Of a DNA stretch of 64,000 nt, positions 20,841-62,605 are shown one piece after another. The stretch spans positions 2,016,001 through 2,080,000 of the forward strand of contig CP000070.1 in the NCBI GenBank assembly GCA_000002445.1, given 5' to 3'. A model generated the notes under the pieces. The model did not search any database. It worked only from the letters and a program-made list of their open reading frames with translations, and was not told the DNA's origin. Positions within the stretch are counted from its first letter, which is position 1; the number at the start of each line of letters is the position of its first letter. This DNA comes from Trypanosoma brucei. Taxonomy: Eukaryota. The translations under genes and the position numbers were made by a program.

Positions 20841-20847
<7 letters not shown>

Positions 20848-21477: not shown

Positions 21478-21508
<31 letters not shown>

Positions 21509-39930: not shown

Positions 39931-39950
39931 CTACCTACCTACCTACCTAC

Positions 39951-40006
<56 letters not shown>
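39931..40006. repeat. (TACC)5 followed by an (AC)n microsatellite, about 27 units
   Basis: Direct reading: ctacctacctacctacctacc then acacac... to about 40006. Confidence 0.9.
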
Positions 40007-47714: not shown

Positions 47715-50700
47715 TTACACTCCGACACTGCCGGGCCGTGTTCGCCGGAACTTTGGCTGCGACAGGCGCTCCGACAAGCAGCGCTGCGCCTCTACGGCTT
47801 TGGGCCCGTGCGGTATCTCTCGGATTAGGACATACGGCCTGCCTTGCTCGTCCAGCTTTACCTCCTCTAAAACCACTACGGAGGTTGACGATGTGTCCTC
47901 ATTCCTTTTCCCCTCCTGTGATATTGTCCGCCTTATACTCCGGCGGCGCAGTAGAGGGGAATCTCCTGTATCCTGCCGCCCTGAACAGCTAAACGCTCGT
48001 GTTGGCTGCCACGTTGATTTTCTTCTCGCCGACGTGGACGAAAGCTCCCTTAGTAGCAGCCTTGTCACATCTGCCGTGCGACGGGTGCCACCGCATGAGC
48101 TTACGCTCATACTGCGCGCAGGATCCGTTCTTTTCGATGGCGTTGGACCCGTTCGATCCCGCCGCCGGTCGTGGGCAGCGCTGAAGTTGGAAGCATGTGG
48201 TGCCCGAACATTCCTAACCGGAGTATTGGACCCGGCGCTTGATGAGCTGCGAGGCCTAAACGCCCAGCGGAGGTCTACTACGGGAATGGCAACGCCGCCC
48301 ACATTTCGCTCGGTGGTGGCTGCTGAGGGATCACTGCCTTCCGGCCCGGTCTTTCTAGAGGTTCCTGTCGGCGCGTCATCCATCCACGAGGCTGAGGTGG
48401 ACAGAGAGCCGGGCACGCGACCACTAATACGCTCATCGCTCACGTGGAGCTTTTCAGCACATTGTCTACGCGAGCGTTGCGATTCTTCCTTACTAGGTGA
48501 CCTGCAAGTTTCCCGTTGTGTCTCGAAAACTGACGGCTTGCACGGAGAAACGTTTGTGGAAAGTTTCTTGTCGGGGGGCACTGTGGAAGATATGCATCCA
48601 TCTGCGTCGATGACCCTCGCTGGTGCCTTCAGGTTACGGTCTCGTTTCAAACCGTCAGCATCTGATGGGGCTGCAGCCATGCCGGCTGGTGTTCTGCGTC
48701 TCTCCGCGCTACTATGACCACTCTCAGCTGCACGGGTTCCCCTTCCCTTGCGTGTCGAGTCCCGTGTCTCATCTTTGGGCTCGGCAGATAGTCTCCGTTC
48801 TTGCATTTGGCTCGCCTTTCGCTGGCTCAGATTTTTATGCAGGTCAGCTGCACCGTCGCCGCGGGCGTGGCTACGTCTACGTGCCATATGGCTGCACCTG
48901 TGCGTGCAGGTTGAGCGGCAACAGCAACAACTGGGTGAGCGGTCGAATGTGTGTGACGCGCGACGTGGGCGGTCTGCCCGGCCCGAATCACTGGAGCGAC
49001 ACCGGTCGCTCGTGTAGTTGTCTCTGGTGCTCATTGAGCGCGAGGACCTCCTTCTTCCACCACTGACGTACCCCATCGAAGACGGAGGAGGAGCACCGGG
49101 CAACAGGAAGTCCAAACAACCTCTGCCGTGCCTCCACGGGGACCTCCTTTCTTCCCCTTCGTGCATGTATCCGGTGCAACGGCCGCCGTGGAGTGCTCGC
49201 CTGGTCGGCGTCCTCATGCAGGTTAAGCGAGAGGACTTGTGCCTACGCGATTCTTCCATCTCTTGCTTAAGCAGAAAGTACAACTTGTACACGTCTGTTG
49301 CACGGAATATAGAGGATGGCGAAGAGGAACGATCGTTATGGGAGGCACCACGGCTACGCCCATGCGCTTTAGTCCTACGTTGCCCCCTGTCGGTGTAACC
49401 GTGCGTGTGGCCTGGCTGATGCCCACCATGCTTGTCTGGTGAAGTTCCCCCCTTGTCACATTTATCTCCCGAATATGATTCCACGGATGCATCGCTGTCG
49501 GTGTCACTGTCTTCTTCCTCTTCCCTCTCGTCTTCGCTGCTGTCGGGTTGCGGTGGCCTCCGTTTCTTATTCTGCCCTACACGGCAATCAACCAATTTGG
49601 AAGCTGAAGGCTTACGCCGTGGCGAAGGTTTCTTCACCGGACTCGAAGTGTCCTTTTCCCTTTCCTTAGTACGACCGCGACTGTGACGATCGTTGGCTCC
49701 TACTGGTGTGGCTCTTTTGCCCGAGCTGGACGGACTGCGATTTGGTTCCCTGCAGTTCGTTGCCGTGCTCTTTACTTCCCGTAGGACCTCCTCACCTCGT
49801 TCGGACGCTATTTCACCGTGGTGGGAACGTGGGGGATGCGTGGACCGCTTATCCTCTCCCCGCGTGCCGCCGTGTTCTCGCTCATCTGTGGCATGTTTTC
49901 TATTCGGTTCGGGACTCTTGGCCTTCTGAATTTCTCGGATTACCCTTCCCGCCCCCGCTCTAGAGGTGTTGACAGTGGGTGACACATCATTACTTACTGT
50001 CTCTTTCTTTTGAAAAGAAGTTACACCACTTCCCGTTGTGGATGCCCCTGTGCCAACACCACTTTTAACCACGGGCTGGGGTGGTGTTGGAGTTTCTTTG
50101 GGGGTGACGGCAGGGGAGGGGATGCGTTCCTTAGTAGGCTGAGTTTCTTCGTGCTTCGTTTTCATTGGGGCGGTGCCCTTTACTGGCGCCGCATGATTTG
50201 CGAAAGGTGCGGGGGTTTCCAAACTTTTGGCCTCAGCTGGAGCTTCTTTGACAACAGGTTCAACATTATCAGCACGTCTCGGTGCCTGCGTTGCGCTACT
50301 TTCCTGATTTCGACCAGTCATACCGCGGCGATCGTCTGACTTTTTTACTTTCTCCGTGGTCGTCGGGATCTCTACTGTTGCCCGCTTCTTGGCCTTCGCG
50401 TCTACCTCCTCGGAGTCCGAATCTGAATCGGAGTTACGGGGGCGGGGCACCGGCATGGACATGATGGGTTTCAGCTGCGCGTTGCGGTTGCGCTGATTAC
50501 CAATACCAACAGCACTGAGTCCGTCACTGCTGCTGCTGTCATCATCTAAAGCTCTTGTTGTAGATAAAGAGGCTGTCGCTCCCTCATCCTTCTGCCTCCT
50601 TTTGTTCGTTTGGTTTTTCTCGTGAGAGGCGGACTGGATCTCCCGGGAGGAAACGGGGTTGGATCTTCGTTTCCCACTGGAACAAGGTGTGTCGGCTGCC

Positions 50701-51671
50701 GGCAGTGTCCTGCTCTGCGTCATGTCAGCAGTATGACGCAAAGGCGATGCCCCACCCGTGCCACCGCTTCCACTTTGCATGACCCTTTGCCTAAAGGGTG
50801 TTGCATTAGCAGATTGAGAGTGTTTCGTAGGATCGACATAACTTGTTCCTGGTGTGGCGTTCGCCAGCATGTTTGAGCGGAACCGCTGCTCGGGGTCCGC
50901 TACAGGCTGTTGTAGCATCGTGTTGTGATTTCGTGCCGCCGGCGCTGATGCCTCTTCTTGTTGCTGCTGTTGCTCCGCATTCCCCTTTTTGTTTCCCTTC
51001 TTGAACACATTAAATATCCCCTTCACGGATCCCCATACTCCCTTTGAACTTGACTTCTTTGAAGCGGATGATTCTGTTGGAGCAGACTCCTGCTCCACTT
51101 TGTCTTCGGTGGTATTTGTGGTGGATGGGGGTGGTGCAACGGGACCGTGAGCAGCGGATCCCTGCTGGGGTTGTAAAGGCATAGTTTGACGCTGGTTGTT
51201 TATGTAAGGGTACAAATGCGTGTTCTGGTGCAGTGGAGGCTGCGAAGCAGGAATCATACCACCTGGGTGCATCAAAATGCCGCTCCTGGAAAGAGGTGCC
51301 GGAGCCCCCGGGTTGTAAGGTTGGACCTGAGACGGGTCCTGCCTGAAAGTCATTGGTCGCATTTGGGGTTGACAGAAGCGTGGGTCCATTCCCTCAGCAA
51401 CTCTAAGTGGGGATTGCTGACTAACGAGCCTTGGGTCTCCTCGCGACAAGTGCCGGACGTTTGGGGCCATTCCCCCGGGACCAACTAACATATAATTCCC
51501 TGGCGGTGGTTGCCCTGGTGGTGCCTGACCAGCGGCCAACCCACCCCGCGGTTGCGCATTCGCTGTTCCATACCCGTGCTGCATCTGCACGGGCACACTT
51601 CCTGGGGGAGCGGAGCCCAACATGTCGGTAAGTGACAGCTCCTTATCCCTTTCCGCCTTCTTTTTTCCCAT
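47715..51671 (-). CDS. hypothetical protein, 1318 aa, Pro/Gln-rich N-terminus and Ser/Arg/Asp-rich body
   Basis: Continuous 3.96 kb minus-strand ORF. N-terminal Pro/Gln/Gly-rich region (PPGQPPPGNYMLVGPGGMAPN...). SDSDSDSEE and RS/SP-rich stretches. Cys cluster SPSCCCCRSTCTHRCSH. No catalytic motif recognised. Confidence 0.5.
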   Translation of the reverse strand: MGKKKAERDKELSLTDMLGSAPPGSVPVQMQHGYGTANAQPRGGLAAGQAPPGQPPPGNYMLVGPGGMAPNVRHLSRGDPRLVSQQSPLRVAEGMDPRFCQPQMRPMTFRQDPSQVQPYNPGAPAPLSRSGILMHPGGMIPASQPPLHQNTHLYPYINNQRQTMPLQPQQGSAAHGPVAPPPSTTNTTEDKVEQESAPTESSASKKSSSKGVWGSVKGIFNVFKKGNKKGNAEQQQQQEEASAPAARNHNTMLQQPVADPEQRFRSNMLANATPGTSYVDPTKHSQSANATPFRQRVMQSGSGGTGGASPLRHTADMTQSRTLPAADTPCSSGKRRSNPVSSREIQSASHEKNQTNKRRQKDEGATASLSTTRALDDDSSSSDGLSAVGIGNQRNRNAQLKPIMSMPVPRPRNSDSDSDSEEVDAKAKKRATVEIPTTTEKVKKSDDRRGMTGRNQESSATQAPRRADNVEPVVKEAPAEAKSLETPAPFANHAAPVKGTAPMKTKHEETQPTKERIPSPAVTPKETPTPPQPVVKSGVGTGASTTGSGVTSFQKKETVSNDVSPTVNTSRAGAGRVIREIQKAKSPEPNRKHATDEREHGGTRGEDKRSTHPPRSHHGEIASERGEEVLREVKSTATNCREPNRSPSSSGKRATPVGANDRHSRGRTKEREKDTSSPVKKPSPRRKPSASKLVDCRVGQNKKRRPPQPDSSEDEREEEEDSDTDSDASVESYSGDKCDKGGTSPDKHGGHQPGHTHGYTDRGQRRTKAHGRSRGASHNDRSSSPSSIFRATDVYKLYFLLKQEMEESRRHKSSRLTCMRTPTRRALHGGRCTGYMHEGEERRSPWRHGRGCLDFLLPGAPPPSSMGYVSGGRRRSSRSMSTRDNYTSDRCRSSDSGRADRPRRASHTFDRSPSCCCCRSTCTHRCSHMARRRSHARGDGAADLHKNLSQRKASQMQERRLSAEPKDETRDSTRKGRGTRAAESGHSSAERRRTPAGMAAAPSDADGLKRDRNLKAPARVIDADGCISSTVPPDKKLSTNVSPCKPSVFETQRETCRSPSKEESQRSRRQCAEKLHVSDERISGRVPGSLSTSASWMDDAPTGTSRKTGPEGSDPSAATTERNVGGVAIPVVDLRWAFRPRSSSSAGSNTPVRNVRAPHASNFSAAHDRRRDRTGPTPSKRTDPARSMSVSSCGGTRRTADVTRLLLRELSSTSARRKSTWQPTRAFSCSGRQDTGDSPLLRRRSIRRTISQEGKRNEDTSSTSVVVLEEVKLDEQGRPYVLIREIPHGPKAVEAQRCLSERLSQPKFRRTRPGSVGV

Positions 51672-52787
51672 TAAGGAGGCGGCGGAAGAAACCGGAAGAA
51701 AATCGCCCTAAAAGGATTCCCGGCTCTTCCTAGCTCCTCGTATTCCTGGCTTGCACTTCGTATATATTTGTATAAATCTATATCTCTCAGTATAAACAAT
51801 TATGTATATGTGTGTCTATCTATAGTTTACTTTCCTTCTCTGCCTCAGCCTTCCCCCTGGCTGCAGAAGGCTCGAAACAGGTTTACTTAATATATATGTT
51901 TGCAGTGAAGGGTAAAGTGGGAAGAGGGTTAATGTAGAAATGGAAAGGAGGGTGTTTGACTGAACGCCAAACTACTTTCCACGCACACCTCTAAGTAGCA
52001 GAGGAGGAGGGTGTGCAAAAACAAACACACACACACACGCAGAAAAAGGAAGCGGGAAATGGGCCGATACGGTCATTTTTTTTTTCAAAATTAACTTGCT
52101 TATTGCTTCTTAGTTTGTAACTAAAGAAGATGTCTGGGGCGGGGATGGCAACATATAGCCACTCGAATTGTGCAAAGGTTGGCGCGGGGGCGCCCTCTTA
52201 CGCTATACACTTCATTTTTACCTCCTTCATTTTCTGAAGAATTCTGTGCGTAAGGTACAACAAATATCAACATTCAGTTTCTATCGAAACCAACTCAACG
52301 TATGCCTGAAAAAAAAAATATCTATGCGTTCTAACCCCCATACAAATGTCAAAACAAAAAAAAAACACACGTACGGGGCCATGTTTCTATGGCACATATA
52401 TGATAGGAGAACAAAGAAAGCCATTGCTGTCTGCGTCACCCCATTCCACTCCCTCTTTTTCTCCACTCAGCAGCATGCCCTGTGGCGCGGGGGAATGATA
52501 TCTGCTGCGTAAAGATTCTACATTCCTTTCCCTTTCCTCCCTTTCGGCGGCCGCATCAGCTGTTCGGTCGTCACACGTCGTGGAGTGTGTTTGCTCCCAC
52601 CCTCACCAGACAATTGCCGTTTTGTAAGCGGCACCTGGACCGGCCATCTTGTACCATATCCCATCTCCCAATGGAGTACTACGTGATGTCTCGCCATATG
52701 CTTCCCCACTCTCTGACGCTTAAAACGGCGCCACGTATCGGCATGCGTGCGTCATGTGCCACACTTTGGACATTTGTTCGCGACCGC

Positions 52788-55700
52788 TCAAGCAGCACGC
52801 ATAGATTTGGGGAATCTGAAGGCCGGACCACCGTGGGTCTCGGTAGGGTACGGGTGGTAATATTCACCGGGACCCACGCCATTGCCTGCTTCAAACTCAG
52901 CGAAGCGATCGGCAGAAGCGAATGTGAAGGCAAGTACGGTGGGTCTTGCGTCAACGGGGTGGTGATATTCACCGGGACCGGGTGCGTCCTCCTGGGCAGA
53001 TTCCAGCGTCATAGAGCGTGGCCCCCTGCCGAAGGTAAATGCGGGGCCGGGTTTTAAGACGACTGGGCCACCTGTTAGATATGCCCCCGGTCCTGGAACA
53101 TCTTCTGCTCTGCACTGCACCTCCCGCTCCGCTGCCCCAAACGGTACGGCCTTTTGGTTTAGTGTGGAAGGGATAACGTACGCTGCAGGCCCGGGTGTTG
53201 CGTTCACCCGCACTTCAAATACGGCTGTCGAATCAACGGTGGGCAATGGACCGAAGGAAACTGCACGAGTTGTTTCGGTAGGTCGTGGACAATAGGCACC
53301 GGGGCCAGGGACATCTTCCGTTTGGCGGCCATCGCCGTACGTTGGTTTCCCTTTCAGAGTGAAGGCGGGACCTGAATGGCATTGCTGCATGTATCGATCC
53401 GTGTCGTAACTTCCGGGCCCAGGTAAACCATCACTGTTCTCGGCAGCGCCCGATGGCTTCCCCTTCACCGTAAAAGCTGGTCCCGGTTTAAACTGTTCTG
53501 CGTAGCTGCTTACGTTGTAGCTTCCGGGACCGGGGACGTCGGCGTCGACCCCGTCGCTGGTCACTTGTTTTCCTTTGAGCGTGAAGGCAGGGCCCGACTG
53601 AAATTGTTCCGTATAGCGGCTAACGTCGTAGCTACCGGGGCCAGGTACATCGGCGCTACCTTCAACTTGGGATGCTTTTCCTTTCAAAGTAAAGGCTGGG
53701 CCCGCCTGACACAGTTCCATGTAGCGATTGATATCGTAACTGCCAGGTCCCGGAGCATCAATACCATTCTCGCCATTATACGTGGCCTTGCCCTTTAGGG
53801 TAAACGACGGCCCTGCGTGGTGTTGTTCGAGGTAACGATTCGGATCGTAGCTCCCCGGACCTGGAGCGTCAGCTTCGTTGTCGTTTTGCGCTGATTTTCC
53901 CTTCAAAGTAAATGAAACCCCCGACTGACACTGCTTCAAATATCGATTCACATCGTAGCTTCCCGGCCCAGGAACGTCGCCATCGGCACTGTTACTGTTA
54001 AACGCATCCCTCCCTCGGAGAGTGAAGGCAGGACCCGCTTGACACCGCTCCAAGTACTGACTGGCATCATAGCTTCCAGGACCAGGGATATCAGGCCCCT
54101 TCTGCCCAGTGTCGCTTGGTTTCCCCCTTAACGTGAATGAAGGACCTGCCTGAGACTGTTCCATACAGCGATTGATATCATAACTGCCAGGTCCCGGAGC
54201 ATCAATACCATTCTCGCCATTATACGTGGCCTTGCCCTTTAGGGTAAACGACGGCCCTGCGTGGTGTTGTTCGAGGTAACGATTCGGATCGTAGCTCCCC
54301 GGACCTGGAACGTCAGCTTCGCTGTCATTGCCATTACACGCACCTTTTCCTCGAAGTGTGAACGCGGGTCCTGACTGAAACTGCTCCAAGTATCGGTTCG
54401 CATCATAACTACCGGGGCCGGGAATGCCAGCACTGTTTTCGTCAACGCAGGTTGGTTTTCCCTTCAACGAGAAGGCGGGGCCCATTTGGCACCTTTCCAA
54501 GTAGCTACTCGCGTCATAGCTTCCGGGACCGGGGACGTCAGCATCATGTCCGCCGACGGGGGCTGCTTTCCCTCTCAATGAGACCGACGGGCCGGCTTGG
54601 CATTGTTCGAGATAGCGATTTGGGTCGTAGCTTCCCGGACCAGGAACATCACCATTGCCACTGCTGCCGTTAAATGTACTTTTCCCTCGAAGAGTAAACG
54701 CACGACCCGCCCTACTTTCATCTATGTAGCGACTTGCATCGTAGCTCCCAGGACCAGGAAGGTCACCACCGTTTTCATTCTGTCCTGGTTTACTTTTAAG
54801 AGTGAATGCGGGCCCAGCTTGATATGCGTTCAGGTAACGGTTCGTATCGTAGCTACCGGGCCCCGGTACATCGGCATCTACCGTGGGGGCTTTCATGCGC
54901 TCTTCAGCACCAAAGGAATAGGTGTTGCCCGCTGTGGTGTTCCAGGTAGAGGGGATATCATAATCACCAGGTCCAGGACGCGATGAAGCATCATTCAGCT
55001 CTGCCGGCGAATGGCGCGGTGCCTGTGGGAACGACACACCATCCTTCGTACCTCTGGCCTCTGCGGGACTGTACGACGCCGGACCTGGACTCTCTCCCAC
55101 TGCGCCACCGCTGAGCCCAGGGAAGCGCTCGCTCGTGAAACGCATCGCTACGCCACCGTCCACAATACTCCCAAGCCCTCCACTGCTGACCTCGTAGTGA
55201 CCTGGTCCTGGCTGTTCTCTGAGATCGTTATTGTTGGCACCAACCCCTGTGGCAACACGGGGCGCTCGACCAATAAAGGGCCCTGAGGTCCGTTGCGCCG
55301 ATTGAATGCTGTATGCACCGGGCCCAGGTCCTTCGGTTTGGGCAGCTTGGCCATCTGGGAACCGCGCAGCCTTGACAAATGAAGTGGCCCCGCTCCCACC
55401 ATCGACCGCAGGAAATGCGGGCTGCACCGAGTACGTGCCAGGGCCTGGAAGTTCGGCTTTTTGCATATCAACCGCCATGCGATCCTGGGCAGCAGCCCGT
55501 CCGATGGAATACGCTATCCCCTCACGGTTTTCCACCCTTAGGTCGTAAGAACCTGGCCCTGGGGCATCTTCAATGCCACCCGTGTTTGCTACGTCCCTTT
55601 GTGCGGTGCCAAAAATAACGGAAGGTGTATCCGTCGGCAGCGCAGGGTTGTAGTGTCCAGGTCCCGGATGGTTTTGTCCACTGAGGTTGTTCAAACCTCC

Positions 55701-58700
55701 GCTTGTTTGGCGCGGCCCAATACCAAAGAGAGCTGCTGTTGCCGTTAGTGAGGGTTCTTGTGGGCTATATGTTCCTGGTCCGGGCCCATCCGTTCCTAGA
55801 GTGAGCGAAGCGTTTCTTCCTCCCATGGGGAAAGAGTATGCTTGGGAAGAGTCCCATTGCGGATGGTGGGGCATGTACTGCCCGGGTCCAGGGGCTTCGT
55901 CCTCCCCTCTCTCGGTTGCAAAGCGAGGACTTATGGGAAAGGCGGAAACAACGGCTCGGCGATGAGATAAATCTTCCCCAGTGTAGTCGTACTGCCCAGG
56001 CCCAGGGACGTCGCTTCCCTCAAGACTGGGCGCCTCCCGGGTAGCTGTGGGGAAGCGATAGACAGGTGCCGTCGGTGACGTTGTACGCGACGCCCCAACA
56101 TTATACGTTCCTGGTCCCGGCCCTTCCTCATGGTTCAAAGAACCCAAGGCACGTGGTTCGACACCGAACCGTGTGCCTGTAGCTGTGAGTGTGGGGATGG
56201 TGACATCGTAGGCTCCGGGGCCGGGTGTGGTTCCATCGTTCTCGGTAGCATCCTGTGGCATGCGAGGTTCCACTCCAAAAGAGTAGGCTGCTCCACCTAC
56301 CTTGGTGCTTAGGTCCTCCGGATGATATTGGCCAGGCCCGGGAAGAAGTGCGTGTTCTCGTTCCTTCAGATCGAGGACACGTGGCCCCCTGCTGAACACA
56401 GGAACACCAGCAGCCGCTGTGAGGGTTCCACGATCTTCTATTGAATAGTATCCAGGTCCCGGAGTGACGTCGTTGTCACCACCTGCAGCAGCCCCCGCAA
56501 CATTGTCGAACCGGGGTGCTGTTGTGAAGGAGACCGGACCGACTGGTGACGCGCCTCCAGTGGTCGGGTCTAACGAATACGCTCCGGGTCCCGGGATGCT
56601 CCAACTGTCTTCATGAGACTGTAGACGAGGTGCCATGCCAATTATGGCGGAGCGCGCACAAGAGGCCTTGCTATCGTGGGGATTGTAGTGACCCGGACCA
56701 ACCGCCAACTCGCCGTGCCGCTCCTCCTGTATTCGTCCATCCGCGGCGCTACCGAACGTGGTGTGAAAGGTGTGCGGGACGGGAAGGATAACTTCGTATG
56801 ATCCTGGACCGACACCGGGTCGCATAAGCGCTTCACGCTCTTCTGGTGATGTCGGGTGTTGCGGCGACGAACCAAAGACTACACCTGGGATCGTGCGTCC
56901 ATGTGGGTCTTTTGGAGCATACGCCCCAGGACCAGGGACAGCCTCTGCGGGATCAGCCCGCTGGGACGGTTTGCCACAAGATATGCCGAAGTTCACGACA
57001 TTAGTTGGGGTTGGGCTCTGCCGAGTGTCATATGCTCCAGGACCCGGTACCTCATTAAGTGTATCGGCAGCAAACCTGGGACCGGCGCTCCACACTGCCC
57101 CCGATGCAGGACCTTTAGGCACTTGGGGATCGTATGAACCTGGTCCAATCCCGTCGTTGCCATCGTGGTTCCCCACGGAGTGGTCGATGGTTAAAAGGCG
57201 TGGCTCTGTGCCAAACACTGCCGCCCCCCTGTACTCCGGAGGTCTCTCTATTGTGTAGGCCCCTGGTCCTGGGACATCTTGACGATCTTTTTCCCCACCG
57301 CTAGTCTGAAACCTTGCAGCTTCACCAATCACAACGGCCCGGGTGTTCGGCATCGGATCTTGTGGATCGTATTCTCCGGGTCCGGGAACTGACACACTGG
57401 GCTCTGGGCCGTCAAGTTTCTGACCGATTGAAAAAGACGGGCTATTCTTCGGCATGGCGATCTCGTACGCACCCGGGCCTGGTTTTTTTGCAGCTTCATC
57501 CTCGTTGAATGGTAATTCTCGTGGGGCACTTCCGAAGACAGCGGCACGGCCCCTCGTTCCCACATCCCCACAATCAGCATCGTAGTGTCCTGGTCCGGGG
57601 GTGGCCACCACACCGGCAGCCCCTTCAGCACCCGGTTCGCTACTCTCCGCAAATCGCGGTGCGGCGGCATTTAATAGAGGCGACACGACCCGTGGCTCCT
57701 GTACAGTGGTAAGTGCTGTGTAAGTGCCTGGCCCCGGCACATCAGCACAGCAGTCGAAGCCAAGCGTTGATACTCGTTGTGCGGTACCCATGATGGCAGA
57801 CCGCACGGGACTGGTCTGTCTCTCTGTCTCGTAAGTTCCCGGTCCGGGGAGCGTCTCAGCAACTTTCGTCCCTTCGTGCAGCACACGCGGCGCTGTAGGG
57901 AATAAGGGCGCAGAGGAATGCGAATGTTTTAGCTCATATGTGGAAACACTGTACTCACCAGGTCCTGGGGTAGGATGGGGCTCGAGAGGTGCCGAGGGCG
58001 ACTCCGACACAAGCCACCGTGGACCGGTAGACATTTGTGGCAATTCGTAGTGGCCGGGACCAGGCGTTGTATCCACCCGCTCTGCTGGTCGGCGTCCCAT
58101 AAGGTAGGCTGGACCACTTTCCCTCCTGACGGGTTCATATGCCCCAGGTCCAGGTACTTCATGAGGGGAAGTGCGCTCCTTGCTCCACGGAGATCCACCA
58201 CGTCTTACGTTCGTTATCACGGCACTGCGACCACTGACGGCTGTGCACCTGTCGCTTGGCACAGAAGCGGTATCGTACGTGCCTGGACCTGGTACGTTCG
58301 CTGGTTCAGAAGGTGGTGAAGAAGTGAGTGGCACTCGTCCATAACGTAGTAACTTCGCACGACCAAATGAGAAAGCAGGAGGGCTCCTCCGCCGCGCGTC
58401 GGAGAGTGTCGCGGCTTCTGGGTGATATTCGCCAGGTCCTGGTATGAGCACCGCCTCCTTTGTGGGAAGTATAGAAAGCTGACGACGACTACTCGATAGG
58501 GTGCGGGCACTTTTCTTTGATGAGGTTTCTGTCATACTCTTTTCCTTGACGTCGTACGCTCCGGGCCCGGGAAAATTATTGACAGCATGCAACTTTCGTT
58601 CTGCCCGTCCAATTAGCACCCCCCCAGTGGCCGTTTTCCCGGGGGACAATGCAGACATACCTAATTCACCAGACACATCGTACGCCCCAGGACCCGGTGA

Positions 58701-59975
58701 CACCCCCGCCGAGGCACCATCAACTCGTTTTGTTGGTTTCAAGTATGAAGGCACGCTGCCATGTACGTCTGAGTCTCCCACTGCCCGCTGACCGCTTCGG
58801 ACTTCCTCCTCACTTCTGCCGCGCCTTCGTTGACTGGAGCGGTGCTTCGGATGTGTATTAGTGTCAGATGTGTCTACAGCGAAAATAGTGCACCGAGGTG
58901 AAATTCCGAATACGGCACCCCGATTGGAGAGCCGTCCTACAAGCCGCGGCGACACCACCGAGGGAGATTTCTGAAAACTATCATGTGCCTTTGTCGCACC
59001 GCTTTTTTTGTTGCTATTTTTCTTTGTGCTGCTGCCGCAAGGTTGAGCAGCCTCACTGCCGGAGTTGCTGCGGCTGCTGGTGTGATCGTCATTGTCCCCC
59101 TCTGTACACACTGTTCTCAGTGACTGACAAGGGCAGTCGGACGCGTGAGCCGCGGGATTCTTCGGTGCGTCGATATCAGGCATTTGCTTCCAATAACACT
59201 GACAGAGTATTTCCATTTGTCTCTTGAGTAGCTCATTCTTCTCCGCCTTCTGTTCCACCACCTCAACCCCCGTGTGATGTGGACCGCTTGTGTGACTTTT
59301 CTTACTATGCCCAGCTTCAGCACCCCGTCCGCGGTAGCAGTCCCCACTGTCGTTATTGCTGTCATCCGCAATGAAGTACGATCCGGGCCCTGGTGACGTA
59401 TCTTTTCGTATCGGTTCAGACATCCCCTTCCGACCACTTCCGAATGTAGATGGGGGGAAGCGATGCTGTGAACTTCTAGTGACCGTAGCAGCATTAACCA
59501 CCCGACCAGTCGGAGTGCTATAAGGTATCTTCACTTTCTCCGCTGATGCCTCATGAGGCCGACGGCACTTTGTAGCAGCCAACTGGGAGTTGTGACGACG
59601 AACGTGCTGGCATCCGGAAGACGCCTTGGGGCCCATGGACGTGCACTCGTGAGCACACGAGCACCCACATTGAGATGCGCAAGTCTCTGCAGCTTCGTCA
59701 GGCTCCTTCGTCTCCGTTGCTGGAAGTGCGCATCTTGTCTCTGGTTTTGGTGGTGCCGCTGATGCGCAAGAGGACGCAGCCTGCGTACCTCGCTGCTTGA
59801 AGTGGTGAGCTGCCCCGCGCGTGGGAGCCCCTTTTCTGGCTGCAGCCGCTTCCTTCTCCATTATCATATCGACGGAGGCCAAAATACTCGCGTACATAAC
59901 ATCTACTTGCGCTTGGACATCGTTCACATCGACATCATTCTCCTTCACTAGCGACAACTTACTGTACGTATCCAT
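52788..59975 (-). CDS. giant PGPG-repeat protein (sperm-tail PG-rich repeat / STPGR-type), 2395 aa, probable flagellar/cytoskeletal protein
   Basis: More than 60 degenerate ~35-aa repeats, each with the core (D/E)(V/A/I)PGPG(S/A/T/E/H)Y. In the C-terminal third they become very regular: YLEQxQAGPxFTLKGKxxxxxxxxxDVPGPGSYDxNR. The PGPGxY core is the defining motif of STPGR repeats. Confidence 0.7.
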   Translation of the reverse strand: MDTYSKLSLVKENDVDVNDVQAQVDVMYASILASVDMIMEKEAAAARKGAPTRGAAHHFKQRGTQAASSCASAAPPKPETRCALPATETKEPDEAAETCASQCGCSCAHECTSMGPKASSGCQHVRRHNSQLAATKCRRPHEASAEKVKIPYSTPTGRVVNAATVTRSSQHRFPPSTFGSGRKGMSEPIRKDTSPGPGSYFIADDSNNDSGDCYRGRGAEAGHSKKSHTSGPHHTGVEVVEQKAEKNELLKRQMEILCQCYWKQMPDIDAPKNPAAHASDCPCQSLRTVCTEGDNDDHTSSRSNSGSEAAQPCGSSTKKNSNKKSGATKAHDSFQKSPSVVSPRLVGRLSNRGAVFGISPRCTIFAVDTSDTNTHPKHRSSQRRRGRSEEEVRSGQRAVGDSDVHGSVPSYLKPTKRVDGASAGVSPGPGAYDVSGELGMSALSPGKTATGGVLIGRAERKLHAVNNFPGPGAYDVKEKSMTETSSKKSARTLSSSRRQLSILPTKEAVLIPGPGEYHPEAATLSDARRRSPPAFSFGRAKLLRYGRVPLTSSPPSEPANVPGPGTYDTASVPSDRCTAVSGRSAVITNVRRGGSPWSKERTSPHEVPGPGAYEPVRRESGPAYLMGRRPAERVDTTPGPGHYELPQMSTGPRWLVSESPSAPLEPHPTPGPGEYSVSTYELKHSHSSAPLFPTAPRVLHEGTKVAETLPGPGTYETERQTSPVRSAIMGTAQRVSTLGFDCCADVPGPGTYTALTTVQEPRVVSPLLNAAAPRFAESSEPGAEGAAGVVATPGPGHYDADCGDVGTRGRAAVFGSAPRELPFNEDEAAKKPGPGAYEIAMPKNSPSFSIGQKLDGPEPSVSVPGPGEYDPQDPMPNTRAVVIGEAARFQTSGGEKDRQDVPGPGAYTIERPPEYRGAAVFGTEPRLLTIDHSVGNHDGNDGIGPGSYDPQVPKGPASGAVWSAGPRFAADTLNEVPGPGAYDTRQSPTPTNVVNFGISCGKPSQRADPAEAVPGPGAYAPKDPHGRTIPGVVFGSSPQHPTSPEEREALMRPGVGPGSYEVILPVPHTFHTTFGSAADGRIQEERHGELAVGPGHYNPHDSKASCARSAIIGMAPRLQSHEDSWSIPGPGAYSLDPTTGGASPVGPVSFTTAPRFDNVAGAAAGGDNDVTPGPGYYSIEDRGTLTAAAGVPVFSRGPRVLDLKEREHALLPGPGQYHPEDLSTKVGGAAYSFGVEPRMPQDATENDGTTPGPGAYDVTIPTLTATGTRFGVEPRALGSLNHEEGPGPGTYNVGASRTTSPTAPVYRFPTATREAPSLEGSDVPGPGQYDYTGEDLSHRRAVVSAFPISPRFATERGEDEAPGPGQYMPHHPQWDSSQAYSFPMGGRNASLTLGTDGPGPGTYSPQEPSLTATAALFGIGPRQTSGGLNNLSGQNHPGPGHYNPALPTDTPSVIFGTAQRDVANTGGIEDAPGPGSYDLRVENREGIAYSIGRAAAQDRMAVDMQKAELPGPGTYSVQPAFPAVDGGSGATSFVKAARFPDGQAAQTEGPGPGAYSIQSAQRTSGPFIGRAPRVATGVGANNNDLREQPGPGHYEVSSGGLGSIVDGGVAMRFTSERFPGLSGGAVGESPGPASYSPAEARGTKDGVSFPQAPRHSPAELNDASSRPGPGDYDIPSTWNTTAGNTYSFGAEERMKAPTVDADVPGPGSYDTNRYLNAYQAGPAFTLKSKPGQNENGGDLPGPGSYDASRYIDESRAGRAFTLRGKSTFNGSSGNGDVPGPGSYDPNRYLEQCQAGPSVSLRGKAAPVGGHDADVPGPGSYDASSYLERCQMGPAFSLKGKPTCVDENSAGIPGPGSYDANRYLEQFQSGPAFTLRGKGACNGNDSEADVPGPGSYDPNRYLEQHHAGPSFTLKGKATYNGENGIDAPGPGSYDINRCMEQSQAGPSFTLRGKPSDTGQKGPDIPGPGSYDASQYLERCQAGPAFTLRGRDAFNSNSADGDVPGPGSYDVNRYLKQCQSGVSFTLKGKSAQNDNEADAPGPGSYDPNRYLEQHHAGPSFTLKGKATYNGENGIDAPGPGSYDINRYMELCQAGPAFTLKGKASQVEGSADVPGPGSYDVSRYTEQFQSGPAFTLKGKQVTSDGVDADVPGPGSYNVSSYAEQFKPGPAFTVKGKPSGAAENSDGLPGPGSYDTDRYMQQCHSGPAFTLKGKPTYGDGRQTEDVPGPGAYCPRPTETTRAVSFGPLPTVDSTAVFEVRVNATPGPAAYVIPSTLNQKAVPFGAAEREVQCRAEDVPGPGAYLTGGPVVLKPGPAFTFGRGPRSMTLESAQEDAPGPGEYHHPVDARPTVLAFTFASADRFAEFEAGNGVGPGEYYHPYPTETHGGPAFRFPKSMRAA
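53725..53880. repeat. intragenic repeat within the PGPG-repeat gene, unit 1 of an identical pair
   Basis: A ~150 bp stretch (gcgattgatatc...taactgccaggtcccggagcatcaataccattctcgccattatacgtggccttgccctttagggtaaacgacggccctgcgtggtgttgttcgaggtaacgattcggatcgtagctccccggacctgga) recurs at 54169-54324. Neighbouring repeat units differ substantially at the DNA level. Confidence 0.75.
54169..54324. repeat. intragenic repeat within the PGPG-repeat gene, unit 2 of the identical pair
   Basis: See 53725-53880. The protein shows DVPGPGSYDPNRYLEQHHAGPSFTLKGKATYNGENGIDAPGPGSYDINR twice. Confidence 0.75.
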
Positions 59976-60514
59976 ACAAATGTCCCTGCGTGATAGTGTG
60001 AATTATTGAAAAAGATAAAGGCAACAATGTAGCAATCAGTGGTTTTAGGGGAAACGGTACTTGCACGCGCAGCGACGCACGGAAGGTGGTGGGGACAAAC
60101 AAACAAGTGCCGCCCCTACAATAATAGTAATAATAACGATAATAATAGCGGTAATATAGGGGGTAATAACAGATTCCAAGGAAACGTACGCTCAAAATTC
60201 AGAAGGTGCTTTGGTCTGCAAGCAGTAACTCACCGTGGATTAATACACACGGTTTCATACTAGCAACTCAAGAAAAGCACCTGCACTTGCACATGCATGA
60301 AAAATAGAAATAAAAAAAAATTAAAGTAATTTGAGAAAATAAGCAACCGTAACCGTAAATAATGAAACTACTGCACCGTCTCAAATAATTCATTCGTACC
60401 GAACCCTCCTAAGAGAAAAAAAAAACGTACGACGCAAACACATCCCTCTCAGAACCATTCCTTCCCTGCGTTAATCCGCGTCGTTTCCCCTCCTTTTCCC
60501 CACGTCTGCTTGCT

Positions 60515-62605
60515 TCACAGTCCGTATATACGGGACTTGCGCGGGGCGTCTATCACGAAGGAAAAATCAACTCTTCGTGACTCTCCAGGCTTAAGAACAA
60601 CTTCGATGTTCACCTCTCCTTCCGTCTCGAAGCCCCGTCTCTTTTCCTCGTCGTCAACTGCGTAATTTGCAGGCTCAATGAGCTGCACGACGAGCTCTTC
60701 GTCATCCGACTTGGGTATGTGTTCCCGCAACGTTAGCGTCACAGTCTCCATCGGCTTTTTGTTTGTGAGCGTAGTGGTGTAGGAGTACGTGACGCGACTC
60801 CTTCCGTTGGATCCGGGGAGACTGAATCCGAGAAATTTATCAGCATCATCGTGCTTTTTGGTGAGGAAATCCCTGCGAACCTCGATGCTGGGGTCCACGC
60901 CAAAGTAAATTCTCAGCTTCTCCCCGGGTGGGGTGCGTTCAAGCATGGAATTGGCGACAAAATCACCATCGAGCTGCACAGATGCTTTACCGGCAAGTAT
61001 CAGTAACGCACCCTCACTGTCGTTTGTCCCTTCGTTCGTGCACGTTGCCGTAGCATAAGCAGCTTCCGATACACCGGGTACAGTAACATAATTCACCTCC
61101 GCCTCCCAGCGGCGGGTGGCGATGGGGACTCGAAGCTCCGTCTGTGCGTCCACGGCAGATCGAGTCAAGGCCCGGATTGAGTAGCGACCCGGCAATGTGA
61201 AGTTCATCACACCTCCGGGTCCATCTTCGTTGCCAGCCACATTCCAAGGTTCATCCGGTAGCTCTTGCTCGTCATCGCTACTGTCGCTGCTTTCACCCGA
61301 AGCGTCACCGAAGGGCCCAGCGGGTTTGCCCTCCTTAGCATTACCAGTACTGGAGGTGCCACACGAATTTACTCCGGAGACTTCTAGCCGCCATGGCTTA
61401 AGTTTGGCCCCCCTTCCGGCATGACGCCGTGGTGCCGCTGAAGAAAGTGTAAGGGCCACATCATCGAAGTCCTCCACGCCGCCAGAGACAACAGCATTGT
61501 ACTGAAGTGTTACCTCACGTTTTTGGCTGTCTAGGGCAACTTCATACTCACACCGCCAGGAGGCATCGTGCGAAATATACAACACAAACACCGTCGACTC
61601 TAATATCCTTTCCATTGTTCTCACCACAATACAGCAAAAGCGATGACGACCCGCGGAAGCCGATGACTCTCTCGTACTTGTTGCCTCCACGTCTGGTATA
61701 TCTAACCACCGCAGAGCAGTGTTGCGTTCTCCCTCAACTTCAAAGATACGGCGGTTCATTAGTTCGATTTGACGTTCAATATCCATCTCCTCCTTCTCCA
61801 GCTGCGTGTCCTCACTCTGCAGCCGCCGCTTCTCTTTGAGGTACTGTCGTGTCCGTTCCTCCACGCCGTCAATCTGCATCTTCCAAAAATCTGTCACCAG
61901 GGCGTCAGCGAGTTCATCGGTGAGGGGGCCGCACGCGCGGTCGAATAAATTCGTGGCTATATCTACCCCGTGGTTCAGTTCCTCCTGCTGAAGTTTGTTC
62001 ACAGCCCGTTTCCTTACCACCCGCTCTAACTTCGCCTCCATGGTACGGAGATCCTTTTTCACATTCAGCGCATCCTCGGCAACACCTTCGTGGCTGCCGT
62101 CCGTGGCGGGATCCTCTTCAATGTTCTCGAAGAACACCCCACAGACGAGAACGCGCTCGCTAGTGTACGCATCGAAGCGAACCTGCACCGAGTCTTGATC
62201 AAATGACGGGGGCATAGCGAAGTAAATGTGCACCTCCCTTCCCTCCACTTCTTCTTCTTCCAAGTCTTCCTTGTTTTTTTCATTAACCAGGCGCCGTTGT
62301 GGTTCTACAACTCCACTGGGGTAACTTCCTGCATCTGTTTCCACCTTGACACTACTATTACTACTGTCCCTGGTATTGGCAGTGACGTCACGAACACTCA
62401 TTTGGTCCACAACGTCCGTGGAGGCAACCGGGGTATTCGCTGGCGTGCGGGGAGAAGTGTTTATGGTGTCGTCGAATGGCAGCTTTATCTTCGCGTAGCG
62501 CCGTACATGTGCCTGTCCCTTGTACATCGTGACTGCGTCCACCTTGGAGGCCGTGCGAATAATATCCGCACTCCAGTTGCCATTACCACTTGGCAGGGAT
62601 GACAT
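60515..62605 (-). CDS. conserved hypothetical protein (N-terminal beta-rich domain, central coiled coil, C-terminal beta-rich domain)
   Basis: 696-aa ORF with normal, non-low-complexity composition. Central heptad region (LNVKKDLRTMEAKLERVVRKRAVNKLQQEELNH..., LQSEDTQLEKEEMDIERQIELMNRRIFEVEGER). The architecture is reminiscent of DUF4140/DUF4139-type proteins, but I cannot confirm this without a profile search. Confidence 0.45.
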   Translation of the reverse strand: MSSLPSGNGNWSADIIRTASKVDAVTMYKGQAHVRRYAKIKLPFDDTINTSPRTPANTPVASTDVVDQMSVRDVTANTRDSSNSSVKVETDAGSYPSGVVEPQRRLVNEKNKEDLEEEEVEGREVHIYFAMPPSFDQDSVQVRFDAYTSERVLVCGVFFENIEEDPATDGSHEGVAEDALNVKKDLRTMEAKLERVVRKRAVNKLQQEELNHGVDIATNLFDRACGPLTDELADALVTDFWKMQIDGVEERTRQYLKEKRRLQSEDTQLEKEEMDIERQIELMNRRIFEVEGERNTALRWLDIPDVEATSTRESSASAGRHRFCCIVVRTMERILESTVFVLYISHDASWRCEYEVALDSQKREVTLQYNAVVSGGVEDFDDVALTLSSAAPRRHAGRGAKLKPWRLEVSGVNSCGTSSTGNAKEGKPAGPFGDASGESSDSSDDEQELPDEPWNVAGNEDGPGGVMNFTLPGRYSIRALTRSAVDAQTELRVPIATRRWEAEVNYVTVPGVSEAAYATATCTNEGTNDSEGALLILAGKASVQLDGDFVANSMLERTPPGEKLRIYFGVDPSIEVRRDFLTKKHDDADKFLGFSLPGSNGRSRVTYSYTTTLTNKKPMETVTLTLREHIPKSDDEELVVQLIEPANYAVDDEEKRRGFETEGEVNIEVVLKPGESRRVDFSFVIDAPRKSRIYGL

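What the first reader, a model, noticed from the sequence alone, without database searches (positions are those of the whole stretch)
52788..59975. 2395-aa protein made almost entirely of PGPG(S)Y repeats, with a recently homogenised repeat pair
More than 60 repeats with the core (D/E)(V/A)PGPGxY fill about 7 kb. This core is the STPGR / sperm-tail PG-rich signature found in ciliary and flagellar proteins.

The C-terminal third is a highly regular ~35-36-aa array: YLEQxQAGPxFTLKGK...DVPGPGSYD. Two units (53725-53880 and 54169-54324) are identical over about 150 bp, while other units have diverged at the DNA level. This indicates ongoing gene conversion or unequal exchange inside the array.

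A protein of this size with so many STPGR units would be an extreme member of the family and a candidate axonemal or flagellum-attachment component.
Basis: partly seen in the sequence, partly recalled or inferred. Interest (0 to 1): 0.55.

Follow-up and report, generated by a model that had tools for sequence, protein, structure and literature searches.

The report
Giant PG-rich microtubule-binding repeat protein
This is a real but uncharacterised Trypanosoma brucei gene encoding a 2395-residue protein with 53 sperm-tail PG-rich (PGPGxY) repeats, probably a thread-like protein lying about 0.4 µm along one microtubule protofilament, and one ancestral repeat has been amplified to 14 copies in this lineage.

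Summary
The ORF at 52788-59975 (minus strand, 2395 aa) is real. It is identical to T. brucei TREU927 XP_846340.1 / UniProt Q57XU0, which is probably Tb927.7.7200.

It matches Pfam PF07004 (SHIPPO/STPGR) at E = 3e-135. It holds 53 G-P-G-x-Y motifs (47 exact PGPGxY), not more than 60, spaced 38.0 ± 3.5 aa apart.

The regular C-terminal array is 14 units (aa 1705-2223), which is 22% of the protein rather than a third. Its units share about 60% DNA identity and their synonymous sites are saturated. One 179-nt tract (53704-53882 vs 54148-54326) is the exception: 172/179 identical with a 129-nt exact core. This is a short gene-conversion patch.

Other trypanosomes have a single unit at the array position, T. 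congolense has 6 and T. brucei has 14. The other 39-40 units are one-to-one orthologous across species.

Published cryo-EM shows that PGPGxY binds microtubules once per 8-nm tubulin dimer. I therefore infer a protofilament-tracking protein spanning about 0.42 µm.

Every solved STPGR chain sits on an axonemal doublet, but this giant is in no solved structure. I could not retrieve its localisation. It is a new, extreme member of a known family, of moderate interest.

The parts
52788..59975 (-). Complete CDS, 2395 aa plus stop. Identical to T. brucei brucei TREU927 XP_846340.1 / UniProt Q57XU0. Presumed to be Tb927.7.7200.
   Evidence: ORF list and translation. 100% identity and coverage to P0001. 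The neighbouring ORF 47715-51671 was mapped to Tb927.7.7190 through a TrypTag tagging primer. The '7200' identifier is inferred from that numbering and is not verified.
58704..59975 (-). Non-repeat N-terminal head, aa 1-424. It holds a conserved N-terminal helix motif (D.Q.QVD.LYA.ILASVD), one isolated STPGR unit and a Cys/His motif. The rest is low-complexity.
   Evidence: Alignment of 8 Trypanosoma orthologues. AlphaFold2 gave mean pLDDT 51.5, and only aa ~236-288 were helical at pLDDT 65-76.
59376..59399 (-). Isolated first STPGR motif (SPGPGSYF, aa 193-200). It is preceded by the conserved stretch PPSTFGSGRKGMSEP.
59133..59204 (-). Invariant C258-x-C260-Y-W ... H277-x3-C281 motif. This is a candidate CCHC metal site and a signature of the kinetoplastid orthogroup.
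   Evidence: Regex over 38 homologues: present in all trypanosomatid orthologues, and partly (CxCYW…NPxxH, without the CP[CY] end) in one unnamed relative; absent from the unnamed, EukProt and Diplonema hits P0010-P0020, P0022, P0023 and P0029. These columns are invariant in the 12-sequence alignment A1. Metal binding is inferred, not tested.
54864..58703 (-). 33 individually distinct STPGR units (aa 425-1704, 30-50 aa each). Each has a one-to-one orthologue in the other trypanosomes.
   Evidence: Unit table. Unit-by-unit correspondence with T. congolense. Motif columns shared across 8 species.
53307..54863 (-). Lineage-specific array of 14 units of 36-38 aa (aa 1705-2223), consensus GPGSYDxNRYLEQCQAGPAFTLKGK. 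It was amplified from one ancestral unit.
   Evidence: Outgroups have a single such unit, T. congolense has 6 and T. brucei has 14. The last unit (aa 2186) is closest to the ancestral unit. Between units pS = 0.89 and pN = 0.18.
53704..53882 (-). Gene-conversion tract, C-proximal copy (aa 2032-2091). It spans the end of unit 2003, all of unit 2039 and the start of unit 2076.
   Evidence: 172/179 identical to 54148-54326, with an exact core at 53737-53865.
54148..54326 (-). Gene-conversion tract, N-proximal copy (aa 1884-1943). It lies 444 nt, or four units, from its partner.
   Evidence: In T. b. gambiense, Q1940L and S1941C change this copy towards the partner's sequence.
52791..53306 (-). 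Five C-terminal STPGR units (aa 2224-2395), orthologous across trypanosomes.

Best explanation
The ORF is the T. brucei orthologue of a kinetoplastid-wide giant sperm-tail PG-rich repeat (STPGR/SHIPPO, PF07004) protein.

Proposed mechanism. It is an extended, largely unfolded microtubule-associated protein. Each of its 52 contiguous PGPGxY motifs docks in the groove between two protofilaments at one tubulin dimer. The ~38-residue spacers each bridge one 8-nm dimer repeat. One polypeptide would then run about 0.42 µm along a single protofilament groove, stapling or marking it. The conserved N-terminal head, with its CxCYW…H…C motif, would act as the anchoring or targeting end.

Likely substrate. 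The most likely substrate is a flagellar microtubule (axonemal doublet, or basal body / transition zone). I do not expect it to be a strictly periodic 96-nm component.

Evolution. The ancestral trypanosome protein had about 40 position-specific units. In the T. brucei / T. congolense lineage, one unit near the C-terminus was amplified by unequal exchange to 14 copies in T. brucei. The copies then diverged under purifying selection. A short gene-conversion patch of 179 nt later re-homogenised two copies lying four units apart.

What is shown and what is inferred. Shown here: family membership, repeat geometry, orthology, amplification and the conversion tract. Taken from the literature: that the motif binds microtubules at 8-nm spacing. 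Inferred: that this protein does so, its 0.42 µm span, its location and the role of the head.
For: - Family: PF07004 at E = 3.1e-135, 431.8 bits.
- Motif count: 47 exact PGPGxY against 0.01 expected by shuffling.
- Spacing: 38.0 ± 3.5 aa over 51 intervals.
- Published mechanism: Kubo et al. 2023 (PMC10105768) showed by cryo-EM that P-G-P-G-x-Y is a microtubule-binding motif. They showed that ~40-aa spacers act as 8-nm spacers, so successive motifs bind consecutive tubulins along a protofilament outer wedge. They inferred that 12-motif ODF3L proteins span 96 nm.
- Same ratio in a trypanosomatid: L. tarentolae DMAP5 (STPG2 homologue, 476 aa, PDB 9y6s chain 4F) has 96-nm periodicity, about 40 aa per 8 nm. 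It is the best PDB match to this protein, E = 6e-15.
- Solved relatives: a profile of the 50 units finds only doublet-bound chains as true hits. These are 9y6s_4F, 9e5c_0r, DMAP7 (9e78) and CIMAP1A/B = ODF3/ODF3B in 8otz, 8iyj and 8snb.
- Position-specific constraint: 40 motif positions are shared by at least 6 of 8 Trypanosoma species, 32 by all 8. Unit lengths between T. brucei and T. congolense are nearly identical.
- Amplification: one unit in T. cruzi, T. grayi, T. theileri, T. conorhini and T. vivax; 6 in T. congolense; 14 in T. brucei; all at one site.
- Selection: pN/pS is about 0.2 with saturated pS of 0.89 among array units.
- Conversion: a single 100%-identical pair against a 60 ± 6% background, in a tract that does not respect unit borders.
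- Not an artefact: the length is the same in three assemblies.
Against: - There is no direct evidence that this particular protein binds microtubules, and none for where it sits.
- It is absent from every PDB entry. That includes the L. tarentolae 48-nm and 96-nm doublet models, which resolved two smaller STPGR proteins.
- A span of 53, 45 or 40 units (424, 360 or 320 nm) is not a multiple of 96 nm, and it varies between species. That fits poorly with a fixed ruler or a periodic axonemal subunit.
- In Leishmaniinae and Phytomonas the median spacing is 41-48 aa, and only 44-65% of intervals fall within 30-45 aa. The 8-nm register may therefore be loose.
- AlphaFold gave no confident fold for the head.
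- No paper in the searchable library mentions the presumed gene ID or its presumed Leishmania counterparts.
Confidence: 0.6

Rival explanations
1. It is a cell-body microtubule protein rather than a flagellar one. It would bind the subpellicular corset or the microtubule quartet / flagellum attachment zone, using the same PGPGxY protofilament-groove mechanism.
For: - The giant class (36-53 motifs) is concentrated in Euglenozoa: kinetoplastids, and named diplonemid hits such as Diplonema papillatum. From general knowledge, these organisms share a pellicular microtubule corset.
- It is not among the modelled doublet proteins of L. tarentolae.
- The unit number varies between species and is not commensurate with 96 nm.
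- From memory, not tested: the T. brucei corset proteins MARP-1/2 also use ~38-aa tandem repeats.
Against: - Every solved STPGR chain is on an axonemal doublet, although only doublets have been solved at this depth.
- The family is otherwise tied to cilia (Kubo 2023).
- There are no localisation data either way.
Confidence: 0.2
2. It is a true length-setting molecular ruler for a discrete ~0.3-0.4 µm microtubule structure, such as the basal body, pro-basal body or transition zone. The number of units would determine the length of that structure.
For: - The architecture is a single polypeptide with a unique head and position-specific, one-to-one orthologous units whose lengths are conserved.
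- The predicted span is 320-424 nm. From general knowledge, that is the order of basal-body and transition-zone lengths.
Against: - The unit number changed by +5 and +13 in two closely related species, and I know of no reported matching change in ultrastructure.
- Spacing is looser in the Leishmaniinae and Phytomonas orthologues.
- There is no localisation evidence.
Confidence: 0.1
3. The repeats do not bind microtubules in this protein. It would be an intrinsically disordered scaffold, for example of the paraflagellar rod or another matrix, that merely shares the PG-rich motif.
For: - The composition is 12.5% Gly, 11% Pro and 9% Ser.
- AlphaFold confidence is low.
- There is no experimental binding evidence.
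Against: - The exact hexapeptide and ~38-aa spacing that define the microtubule-binding mode are strictly maintained.
- Array units are under purifying selection, pN/pS about 0.2.
- Motif positions are conserved across at least 8 species.
Confidence: 0.07
4. The long array, or the identical pair within it, is an assembly artefact.
For: T. congolense shows two perfectly identical 3-unit blocks (aa 1673-1782 and 1783-1892). That could be either a recent duplication or a mis-assembly in that genome.
Against: - T. brucei units are only ~60% identical at the DNA level, so they assemble unambiguously.
- The sole near-identical tract is 179 nt, shorter than a Sanger read.
- Three assemblies give the same 2395-aa length.
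Confidence: 0.03

Closest known systems
Tetrahymena STPG1A / STPG2 and ODF3L proteins (Kubo et al. 2023, PMC10105768)
   Same: Same Pfam family. Same P-G-P-G-x-Y motif with ~40-aa spacers. These are the proteins for which one-motif-per-8-nm binding in the outer protofilament wedge was shown by cryo-EM.
   Different: They carry 5-12 motifs and span 48-96 nm. This protein has 53 motifs, a 424-aa head with a Cys/His motif and a lineage-specific 14-unit array. Weaving into the lumen, seen for STPG1A and STPG2, cannot be assessed here.
Trypanosomatid DMAP5 (STPG2 homologue; L. tarentolae LtaP35.3930, T. brucei Tb927.9.11140; PDB 9y6s chain 4F) and DMAP7 ('PG-rich', Tb927.10.3920; PDB 9e78/9y6s)
   Same: These are STPGR proteins from the same group of organisms, solved on the outer surface of the doublet with 96-nm periodicity. 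DMAP5 is the best PDB sequence match (E = 6e-15 with the single sequence, 2e-22 with the unit profile).
   Different: They are 476 and 590 aa, encoded at different loci, and are paralogues rather than orthologues. The giant's L. tarentolae orthologue (P0030, 2774 aa) is not in those models.
Mammalian and sea-urchin CIMAP1A/B (ODF3/SHIPPO1, ODF3B) in sperm doublet structures 8otz, 8iyj, 8snb
   Same: They are founding members of PF07004 and were found by the unit profile (E = 4e-5 to 2e-3). They are doublet-associated.
   Different: They are ~250-300 aa with few motifs. There is no orthology and no head domain.
Giant STPGR proteins of other Euglenozoa (T. cruzi ~1907 aa, Leishmania ~2570-2850 aa, Leptomonas 3100-3170 aa, Phytomonas ~2520 aa, Diplonema papillatum 1975 aa)
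   Same: Same overall architecture of a head plus 36-51 motifs. The trypanosomatid proteins share the CxCYW…H…C head signature, so they are orthologues.
   Different: T. brucei has the highest motif count because of the 14-unit array. Leishmaniinae and Phytomonas proteins have longer heads (~630-910 aa before the first motif) and looser spacing. The diplonemid and unnamed hits lack the head signature. None has been characterised, as far as the searchable literature shows.
T. brucei MARP-1/MARP-2 (microtubule-associated repetitive proteins of the subpellicular corset). Recalled from memory, not tested here.
   Same: They are very large trypanosome microtubule-binding proteins built from ~38-aa tandem repeats, the same period as here.
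   Different: From memory, MARP repeats are nearly identical at the DNA level and are not known to me to carry PGPGxY. No MARP sequence was available for comparison, so this is only a lead.

Membership tests
STPGR / SHIPPO-rpt (Pfam PF07004) | Whole-protein score above the Pfam gathering threshold | tested here: met
   431.8 bits against a cut-off of 20, E = 3.1e-135, with 14 stretches individually significant.
STPGR / SHIPPO-rpt (Pfam PF07004) | Repeated P-G-P-G-x-Y hexapeptide core | tested here: met
   47 exact and 53 relaxed motifs, against 0.01 and 0.43 expected from 2000 shuffles.
STPGR / SHIPPO-rpt (Pfam PF07004) | Spacers of about 40 aa between motifs (the 8-nm spacer of Kubo et al. 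2023) | tested here: met
   Mean 38.0 aa, sd 3.5, range 30-50, over 51 intervals. Array units are 36-38 aa.
STPGR / SHIPPO-rpt (Pfam PF07004) | Second half-element of the unit: aromatic-(S/T)-(F/I/L)-G-x-(R/K), about 15-20 residues after the motif | tested here: met
   A loose pattern matches in 42 of 53 units, most often 18-19 residues after the first Gly of the GPGxY core. In the array it is GPAFTLKGK.
STPGR / SHIPPO-rpt (Pfam PF07004) | Motif bound in the inter-protofilament groove of a microtubule, one per tubulin dimer | not testable with these tools
   This is known for STPG1A, and the solved relatives are doublet-bound. The giant itself is in no PDB entry.
STPGR / SHIPPO-rpt (Pfam PF07004) | Ciliary or flagellar localisation | not tested
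   The stored copy of the TrypTag table is truncated and lacks this gene. No paper text mentions it.
DMAP5 / STPG2 orthogroup (96-nm periodic doublet MAP) | Orthology to Tb927.9.11140 / LtaP35.3930, about 476 aa and about 12 motifs spanning one 96-nm repeat | tested here: not met
   This protein is 2395 aa with 53 motifs, on a different chromosome. Similarity to 9y6s_4F is confined to the repeats (E = 6e-15). The modelled-protein table gives a separate T. brucei gene, Tb927.9.11140, for DMAP5.
Kinetoplastid giant-STPGR orthogroup (defined here) | N-terminal head with invariant CxCYW…NPxxH…C(P) signature, followed by at least 35 STPGR units | tested here: met
   The signature is at aa 258-281. 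It is present in all trypanosomatid hits, and partly (CxCYW…NPxxH, without the CP[CY] end) in one unnamed relative. Motif counts across the family are 35-53.

The most novel reading that the evidence does not exclude
The protein is a single-molecule tape measure laid along one protofilament, whose unit count sets or marks the length of a discrete microtubule segment. The segment could be the basal body or transition zone, a proximal or distal axonemal zone, or a quartet microtubule. On this reading, the lineage-specific gain of 13 units in T. brucei and 5 in T. congolense lengthened that segment by about 104 nm and 40 nm. The 40 position-specific spacers would act as an address code, recruiting different partners at defined 8-nm steps.
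Probability: 0.1. Interest if true: 0.75.

Novelty: new member of a known kind. Interest (0 to 1): 0.4.

Why it matters
STPGR proteins have only recently been recognised as microtubule-binding threads with one motif per tubulin dimer. The ones studied so far span 48-96 nm.

A conserved euglenozoan class with 36-53 motifs would span 0.3-0.4 µm. These would be among the longest single-polypeptide protofilament binders known.

T. brucei offers a natural experiment: 40, 45 and 53 units in related species. It is also a tractable system, with tagging, RNAi and expansion microscopy available, for asking whether such proteins stabilise, measure or address microtubules.

The locus is also a clean example of three processes inside one coding repeat: amplification of one ancestral unit, long divergence under purifying selection, and a later short gene-conversion patch.

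The family assignment was already in public annotation, so the advance is incremental.

Tried and rejected
- Tandem Repeats Finder on 52000-60500 found no arrays. Units are ~60% identical at the DNA level, so the repeat is visible only in the protein.
- The look-up of encoding contigs for the exact protein found nothing on record.
- Literature searches found no paper on this gene. I searched UniProt Q57XU0, 'PG-rich' with Tb927, SHIPPO with trypanosom*, the presumed IDs Tb927.7.7200/7210/7220, and the presumed Leishmania IDs.
- TrypTag supplementary table: the stored copy is truncated. It let me map the neighbour Tb927.7.7190 by primer sequence, but it has no row for this gene.
- Supplements of the Leishmania flagellar proteome paper (PMC6615630) and of the two doublet-structure papers gave no entry for the giant.
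- The Subota et al. flagellar proteome paper is not held in the library.
I re-ran it with aa 428-1510.
- AlphaFold2 of the head (aa 148-447, 12-sequence alignment) gave mean pLDDT 51.5, too low for a fold search. I did not run one.
- I rejected a recent four-unit block duplication as the origin of the identical pair. Identity would then extend over 444 nt, but it drops to 69% in the flanking units.
- I rejected the plus-strand ORFs 52482-53057 and 56770-57258 as genes. They lie antisense within this CDS, in a locus where every large ORF that matched a protein family or a known gene is on the minus strand.
- Nucleoporin NSP1 hits to the unit profile are low-complexity false positives.
Full report
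**1. The observation**

The window carries a single long ORF on the minus strand at 52788-59975, encoding 2395 aa.

Its translation contains 47 exact PGPGxY hexapeptides, and 53 motifs when G[PV][GA]xY is allowed. In 2000 shuffles of the same amino acids the means are 0.01 and 0.43. Four other large ORFs in the window contain none.

After one isolated motif at aa 196, the other 52 motifs run contiguously from aa 428 to aa 2368. Their spacing is 38.0 ± 3.5 residues, range 30-50.

The repeats fill 5.9 kb rather than 7 kb, because the first 424 residues form a non-repeat head.

The regular array exists but is 14 units long (aa 1705-2223, window 53307-54863). That is 22% of the protein, not a third.

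At the DNA level Tandem Repeats Finder sees nothing. Array units average only 60% identity, sd 6%, range 51-72% over 90 pairs.

The best-scoring tract is 53704-53882 vs 54148-54326, 172/179 identical with a 129-nt exact core. Units u1891 and u2039 are identical over all 111 nt. At the highest background identity (72%), a 129-nt exact run has a probability of about 4e-19.

**2. Identity of the gene**

The protein is 100% identical over its full length to T. brucei brucei TREU927 XP_846340.1 / UniProt Q57XU0. NCBI calls it "hypothetical protein, conserved" and UniRef calls it "Sperm-tail PG-rich repeat". It lies on a 2,205,233-bp chromosome.

I mapped the adjacent ORF, 47715-51671, to Tb927.7.7190. 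The C-terminal tagging primer listed for that gene in the TrypTag supplement matches 47758-47797 exactly. The STPGR gene is therefore presumably Tb927.7.7200. This is inferred from the numbering and is not verified.

Every large ORF in the window that matched a protein family or a known gene is on the minus strand, as expected for one kinetoplastid polycistronic unit; the large plus-strand ORFs all lie antisense within them.

T. b. gambiense DAL972 and T. equiperdum encode proteins of the same 2395-aa length, with 17 and 4 substitutions. Together with the 60% inter-unit DNA identity, this makes an assembly expansion very unlikely.

**3. Family**

Pfam PF07004 (SHIPPO-rpt, sperm-tail PG-rich repeat) matches at E = 3.1e-135, 431.8 bits against a cut-off of 20.

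The units also carry the second half-element of the repeat: an aromatic-(S/T)-(F/I/L)-G-x-(R/K) stretch about 18-19 residues after the motif. A loose pattern finds it in 42 of 53 units. In the array it is GPAFTLKGK.

**4. What the motif does, from the literature and solved structures**

Kubo et al. 2023 (PMC10105768) resolved Tetrahymena STPG1A on native doublets. They concluded three things:
- P-G-P-G-x-Y is a microtubule-binding motif.
- The ~40-aa stretches between motifs act as 8-nm spacers, so successive motifs bind consecutive tubulins along a protofilament outer wedge.
- ODF3L proteins with 12 motifs therefore span 96 nm.

The full-length protein's only PDB match is 9y6s chain 4F, at E = 6e-15. 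9y6s is the L. tarentolae 96-nm doublet model. The paper's supplementary table lists a 476-aa protein, DMAP5, as an STPG2 homologue with T. brucei gene Tb927.9.11140 and 96-nm periodicity. It also lists a second "PG-rich" protein, DMAP7 (590 aa, Tb927.10.3920). I equate chain 4F with DMAP5 on its matching 476-aa length and its "Sperm-tail PG-rich repeat" name. 476 aa per 96 nm is the same ~40 aa per 8 nm.

A profile built from 50 units of this protein finds these chains as its only true PDB hits:
- 9y6s_4F
- 9e5c_0r, another 476-aa "Sperm-tail PG-rich repeat" chain whose organism I did not determine
- DMAP7 (9e78/9y6s)
- CIMAP1A/B = ODF3/ODF3B in the sperm doublet entries 8otz, 8iyj and 8snb

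All are doublet-bound. The NSP1 hits are low-complexity noise. The giant protein itself is in no PDB entry.

**5. Evolution of the repeats**

Homologues with 36-51 motifs occur throughout Trypanosoma (1720-2074 aa). They also occur in Leishmania, Leptomonas, Porcisia and Phytomonas (2515-3171 aa), in Diplonema papillatum, and in unnamed metagenomic and EukProt sequences.

The trypanosomatid proteins all share an invariant head signature, C-x-C-Y-W…N-P-x-x-H…C (aa 258-281 in T. brucei), so they are orthologues; one unnamed relative has only its CxCYW…NPxxH part. The Diplonema hit and the unnamed or EukProt hits P0010-P0020, P0022, P0023 and P0029 lack it.

In a MAFFT alignment of eight Trypanosoma orthologues, 40 motif positions are shared by at least six species and 32 by all eight. 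All 13 extra T. brucei motifs are inserted at a single site.

Unit by unit, T. brucei and T. congolense correspond one-to-one outside the array, with almost identical unit lengths and recognisably conserved spacers.

At the array site the unit counts are:

| Species | Units at the array site |
|---|---|
| T. cruzi, T. grayi, T. theileri, T. conorhini, T. vivax | 1 |
| T. congolense | 6, as two identical 3-unit blocks |
| T. brucei | 14 |

An example of the single outgroup unit is T. cruzi GPGSYDTNRYAIRYLTGPAFTVQGKSTYKDG…. The last T. brucei array unit (aa 2186) is the closest to the single outgroup unit.

Among array units the proportion of synonymous differences is 0.89, which is saturated. 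The non-synonymous proportion is 0.18 over the first 25 codons. The copies are therefore old and under purifying selection.

The array is thus a lineage-specific amplification of one ancestral unit, which implies unequal exchange. It was followed by long divergence.

The identical pair is a later and separate event. Three observations show this:
- The tract is 179 nt and does not respect unit borders. It covers the last 7 residues of one unit, a whole unit and 16 residues of the next.
- It lies four units from its partner.
- In register, the flanking units are only 69% identical. A recent four-unit duplication would have given 444 nt of identity.

A short gene-conversion patch fits best. In T. 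b. gambiense, two adjacent substitutions at the tract edge (Q1940L, S1941C) convert the N-proximal copy to the partner's "MELCQ". That is what a polymorphic conversion border would look like, although two independent point mutations cannot be excluded.

**6. How extreme is it?**

I queried 1.84 billion representative proteins with aa 428-1510. This returned 1146 hits at E ≤ 1e-3 and 29 at E ≤ 1e-30.

I pooled the 150 best of those with the earlier hits, giving 166 proteins. The median is 12 motifs and 557 aa. The distribution is bimodal, with a large group at 5-15 motifs and a smaller group at 30-50.

The T. brucei protein has the highest count, 51 strict and 53 loose. "Extreme member" is therefore fair. 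However, the giant class as a whole is an ancient euglenozoan feature, not a T. brucei oddity.

**7. Most likely mechanism**

Combining the published binding mode with this geometry gives the best-supported reading. The protein would be an extended, largely unfolded protein with 52 contiguous motifs, each docking at one tubulin dimer in one protofilament groove. That gives a footprint of about 0.42 µm: 52 × 8 nm = 416 nm, or 1971 aa at 40 aa per 8 nm ≈ 395 nm.

The conserved head is predicted only as a short helical module around the Cys/His motif, at pLDDT 65-76, with the rest disordered. It is the obvious candidate for an anchoring or targeting end.

The strict one-to-one conservation of 40 distinct spacers suggests that position along the molecule matters. 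One possibility is that spacers recruit different partners at defined 8-nm steps.

All of this is inference. Binding, extension and location have not been shown for this protein.

**8. Where it sits is unresolved**

In favour of the axoneme: every solved STPGR protein is doublet-bound.

Against a periodic axonemal role:
- The L. tarentolae 48-nm and 96-nm models resolved two small STPGR proteins but not the giant orthologue.
- Spans of 320, 360 and 424 nm are not multiples of 96 nm.
- The unit number differs between close relatives.

A cell-body (corset or quartet) location, or a basal-body / transition-zone location, remains open.

I could not retrieve a TrypTag record because the stored table is truncated. 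No paper in the searchable library mentions the gene.

**9. Verdict**

The family assignment is right and was already present in public annotation. The gene-conversion and unequal-exchange idea is supported and refined.

The flagellar role is plausible but untested.

This is a new, extreme and uncharacterised member of a known family. It is of moderate interest, mainly as a tractable test of whether giant STPGR proteins act as protofilament staples, address tapes or rulers.

Noticed in passing
window 16280-19200 and 43900-46820: A ~2.9-kb segmental duplication at offset 27,621 nt, 97-100% identical. It carries two leucine-rich-repeat protein ORFs: 17132-19363 (743 aa) and 44753-46963 (736 aa), both minus strand, Pfam LRR_14/LRR_4. 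A further 300-nt repeat, 22136-22435 vs 43589-43888, is 99% identical.
   Followed up: partly
window 59133-59204 (aa 258-281 of the STPGR protein): An invariant C-x-C-Y-W…N-P-x-x-H…C motif in the non-repeat head. It is conserved in all trypanosomatid orthologues, partly in one unnamed relative, and absent from the Diplonema hit and other unnamed or EukProt hits. It is a candidate CCHC metal site with no Pfam match. AlphaFold predicts short helices there at pLDDT 65-76.
   Followed up: partly
T. congolense orthologue P0002, aa 1673-1782 and 1783-1892: Two perfectly identical three-unit blocks at the protein level. This is either a very recent duplication independent of the T. brucei expansion, or an assembly issue in that genome.
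   Followed up: no
window 54154-54159 (aa 1940-1941), compared with T. b. gambiense P0039: Two adjacent substitutions in T. b. gambiense (Q1940L, S1941C) change this unit to the sequence of the paralogous unit four repeats downstream. This suggests the border of the conversion tract is polymorphic among T. brucei subspecies.
   Followed up: partly
window 47715-51671 (-): The neighbouring 1318-aa ORF is Tb927.7.7190, mapped by a TrypTag primer. It has no Pfam domain. In the TrypTag table, tagging was attempted at both ends and no cell line or localisation is recorded.
   Followed up: partly
window 22317-42567 (-): The same polycistronic unit encodes a kinesin (22317-24749), a TYW1-like radical-SAM/flavodoxin wybutosine enzyme (25821-28352), a large dual-specificity phosphatase (35227-38127) and a PHO80-type cyclin (40393-42567, probably CYC4 / Tb927.7.7170 by gene numbering). 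A DUF4139 protein lies upstream at 60515-62605.
   Followed up: partly
window 52482-53057 (+) and 56770-57258 (+): Plus-strand ORFs of 191 and 162 aa lie antisense within the STPGR CDS. They are most likely spurious products of the GC-rich repetitive coding sequence.
   Followed up: no
family-wide (proteins P0001-P0188): STPGR proteins fall into two size classes. A large group has about 5-15 motifs (median 12, which would be 96 nm by the published geometry). A smaller group has 30-53 motifs, and its members with a source name are mostly kinetoplastid (plus Diplonema papillatum). One hit, P0015, fuses STPGR repeats to a subtilase and a PA domain.
   Followed up: partly
window 8001-12000, 20001-22000, 32001-34000, 38001-40000: Intergenic stretches drop to 31-41% GC, against 48-59% in coding regions. 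This is the usual T. brucei pattern and was not examined further.
   Followed up: no
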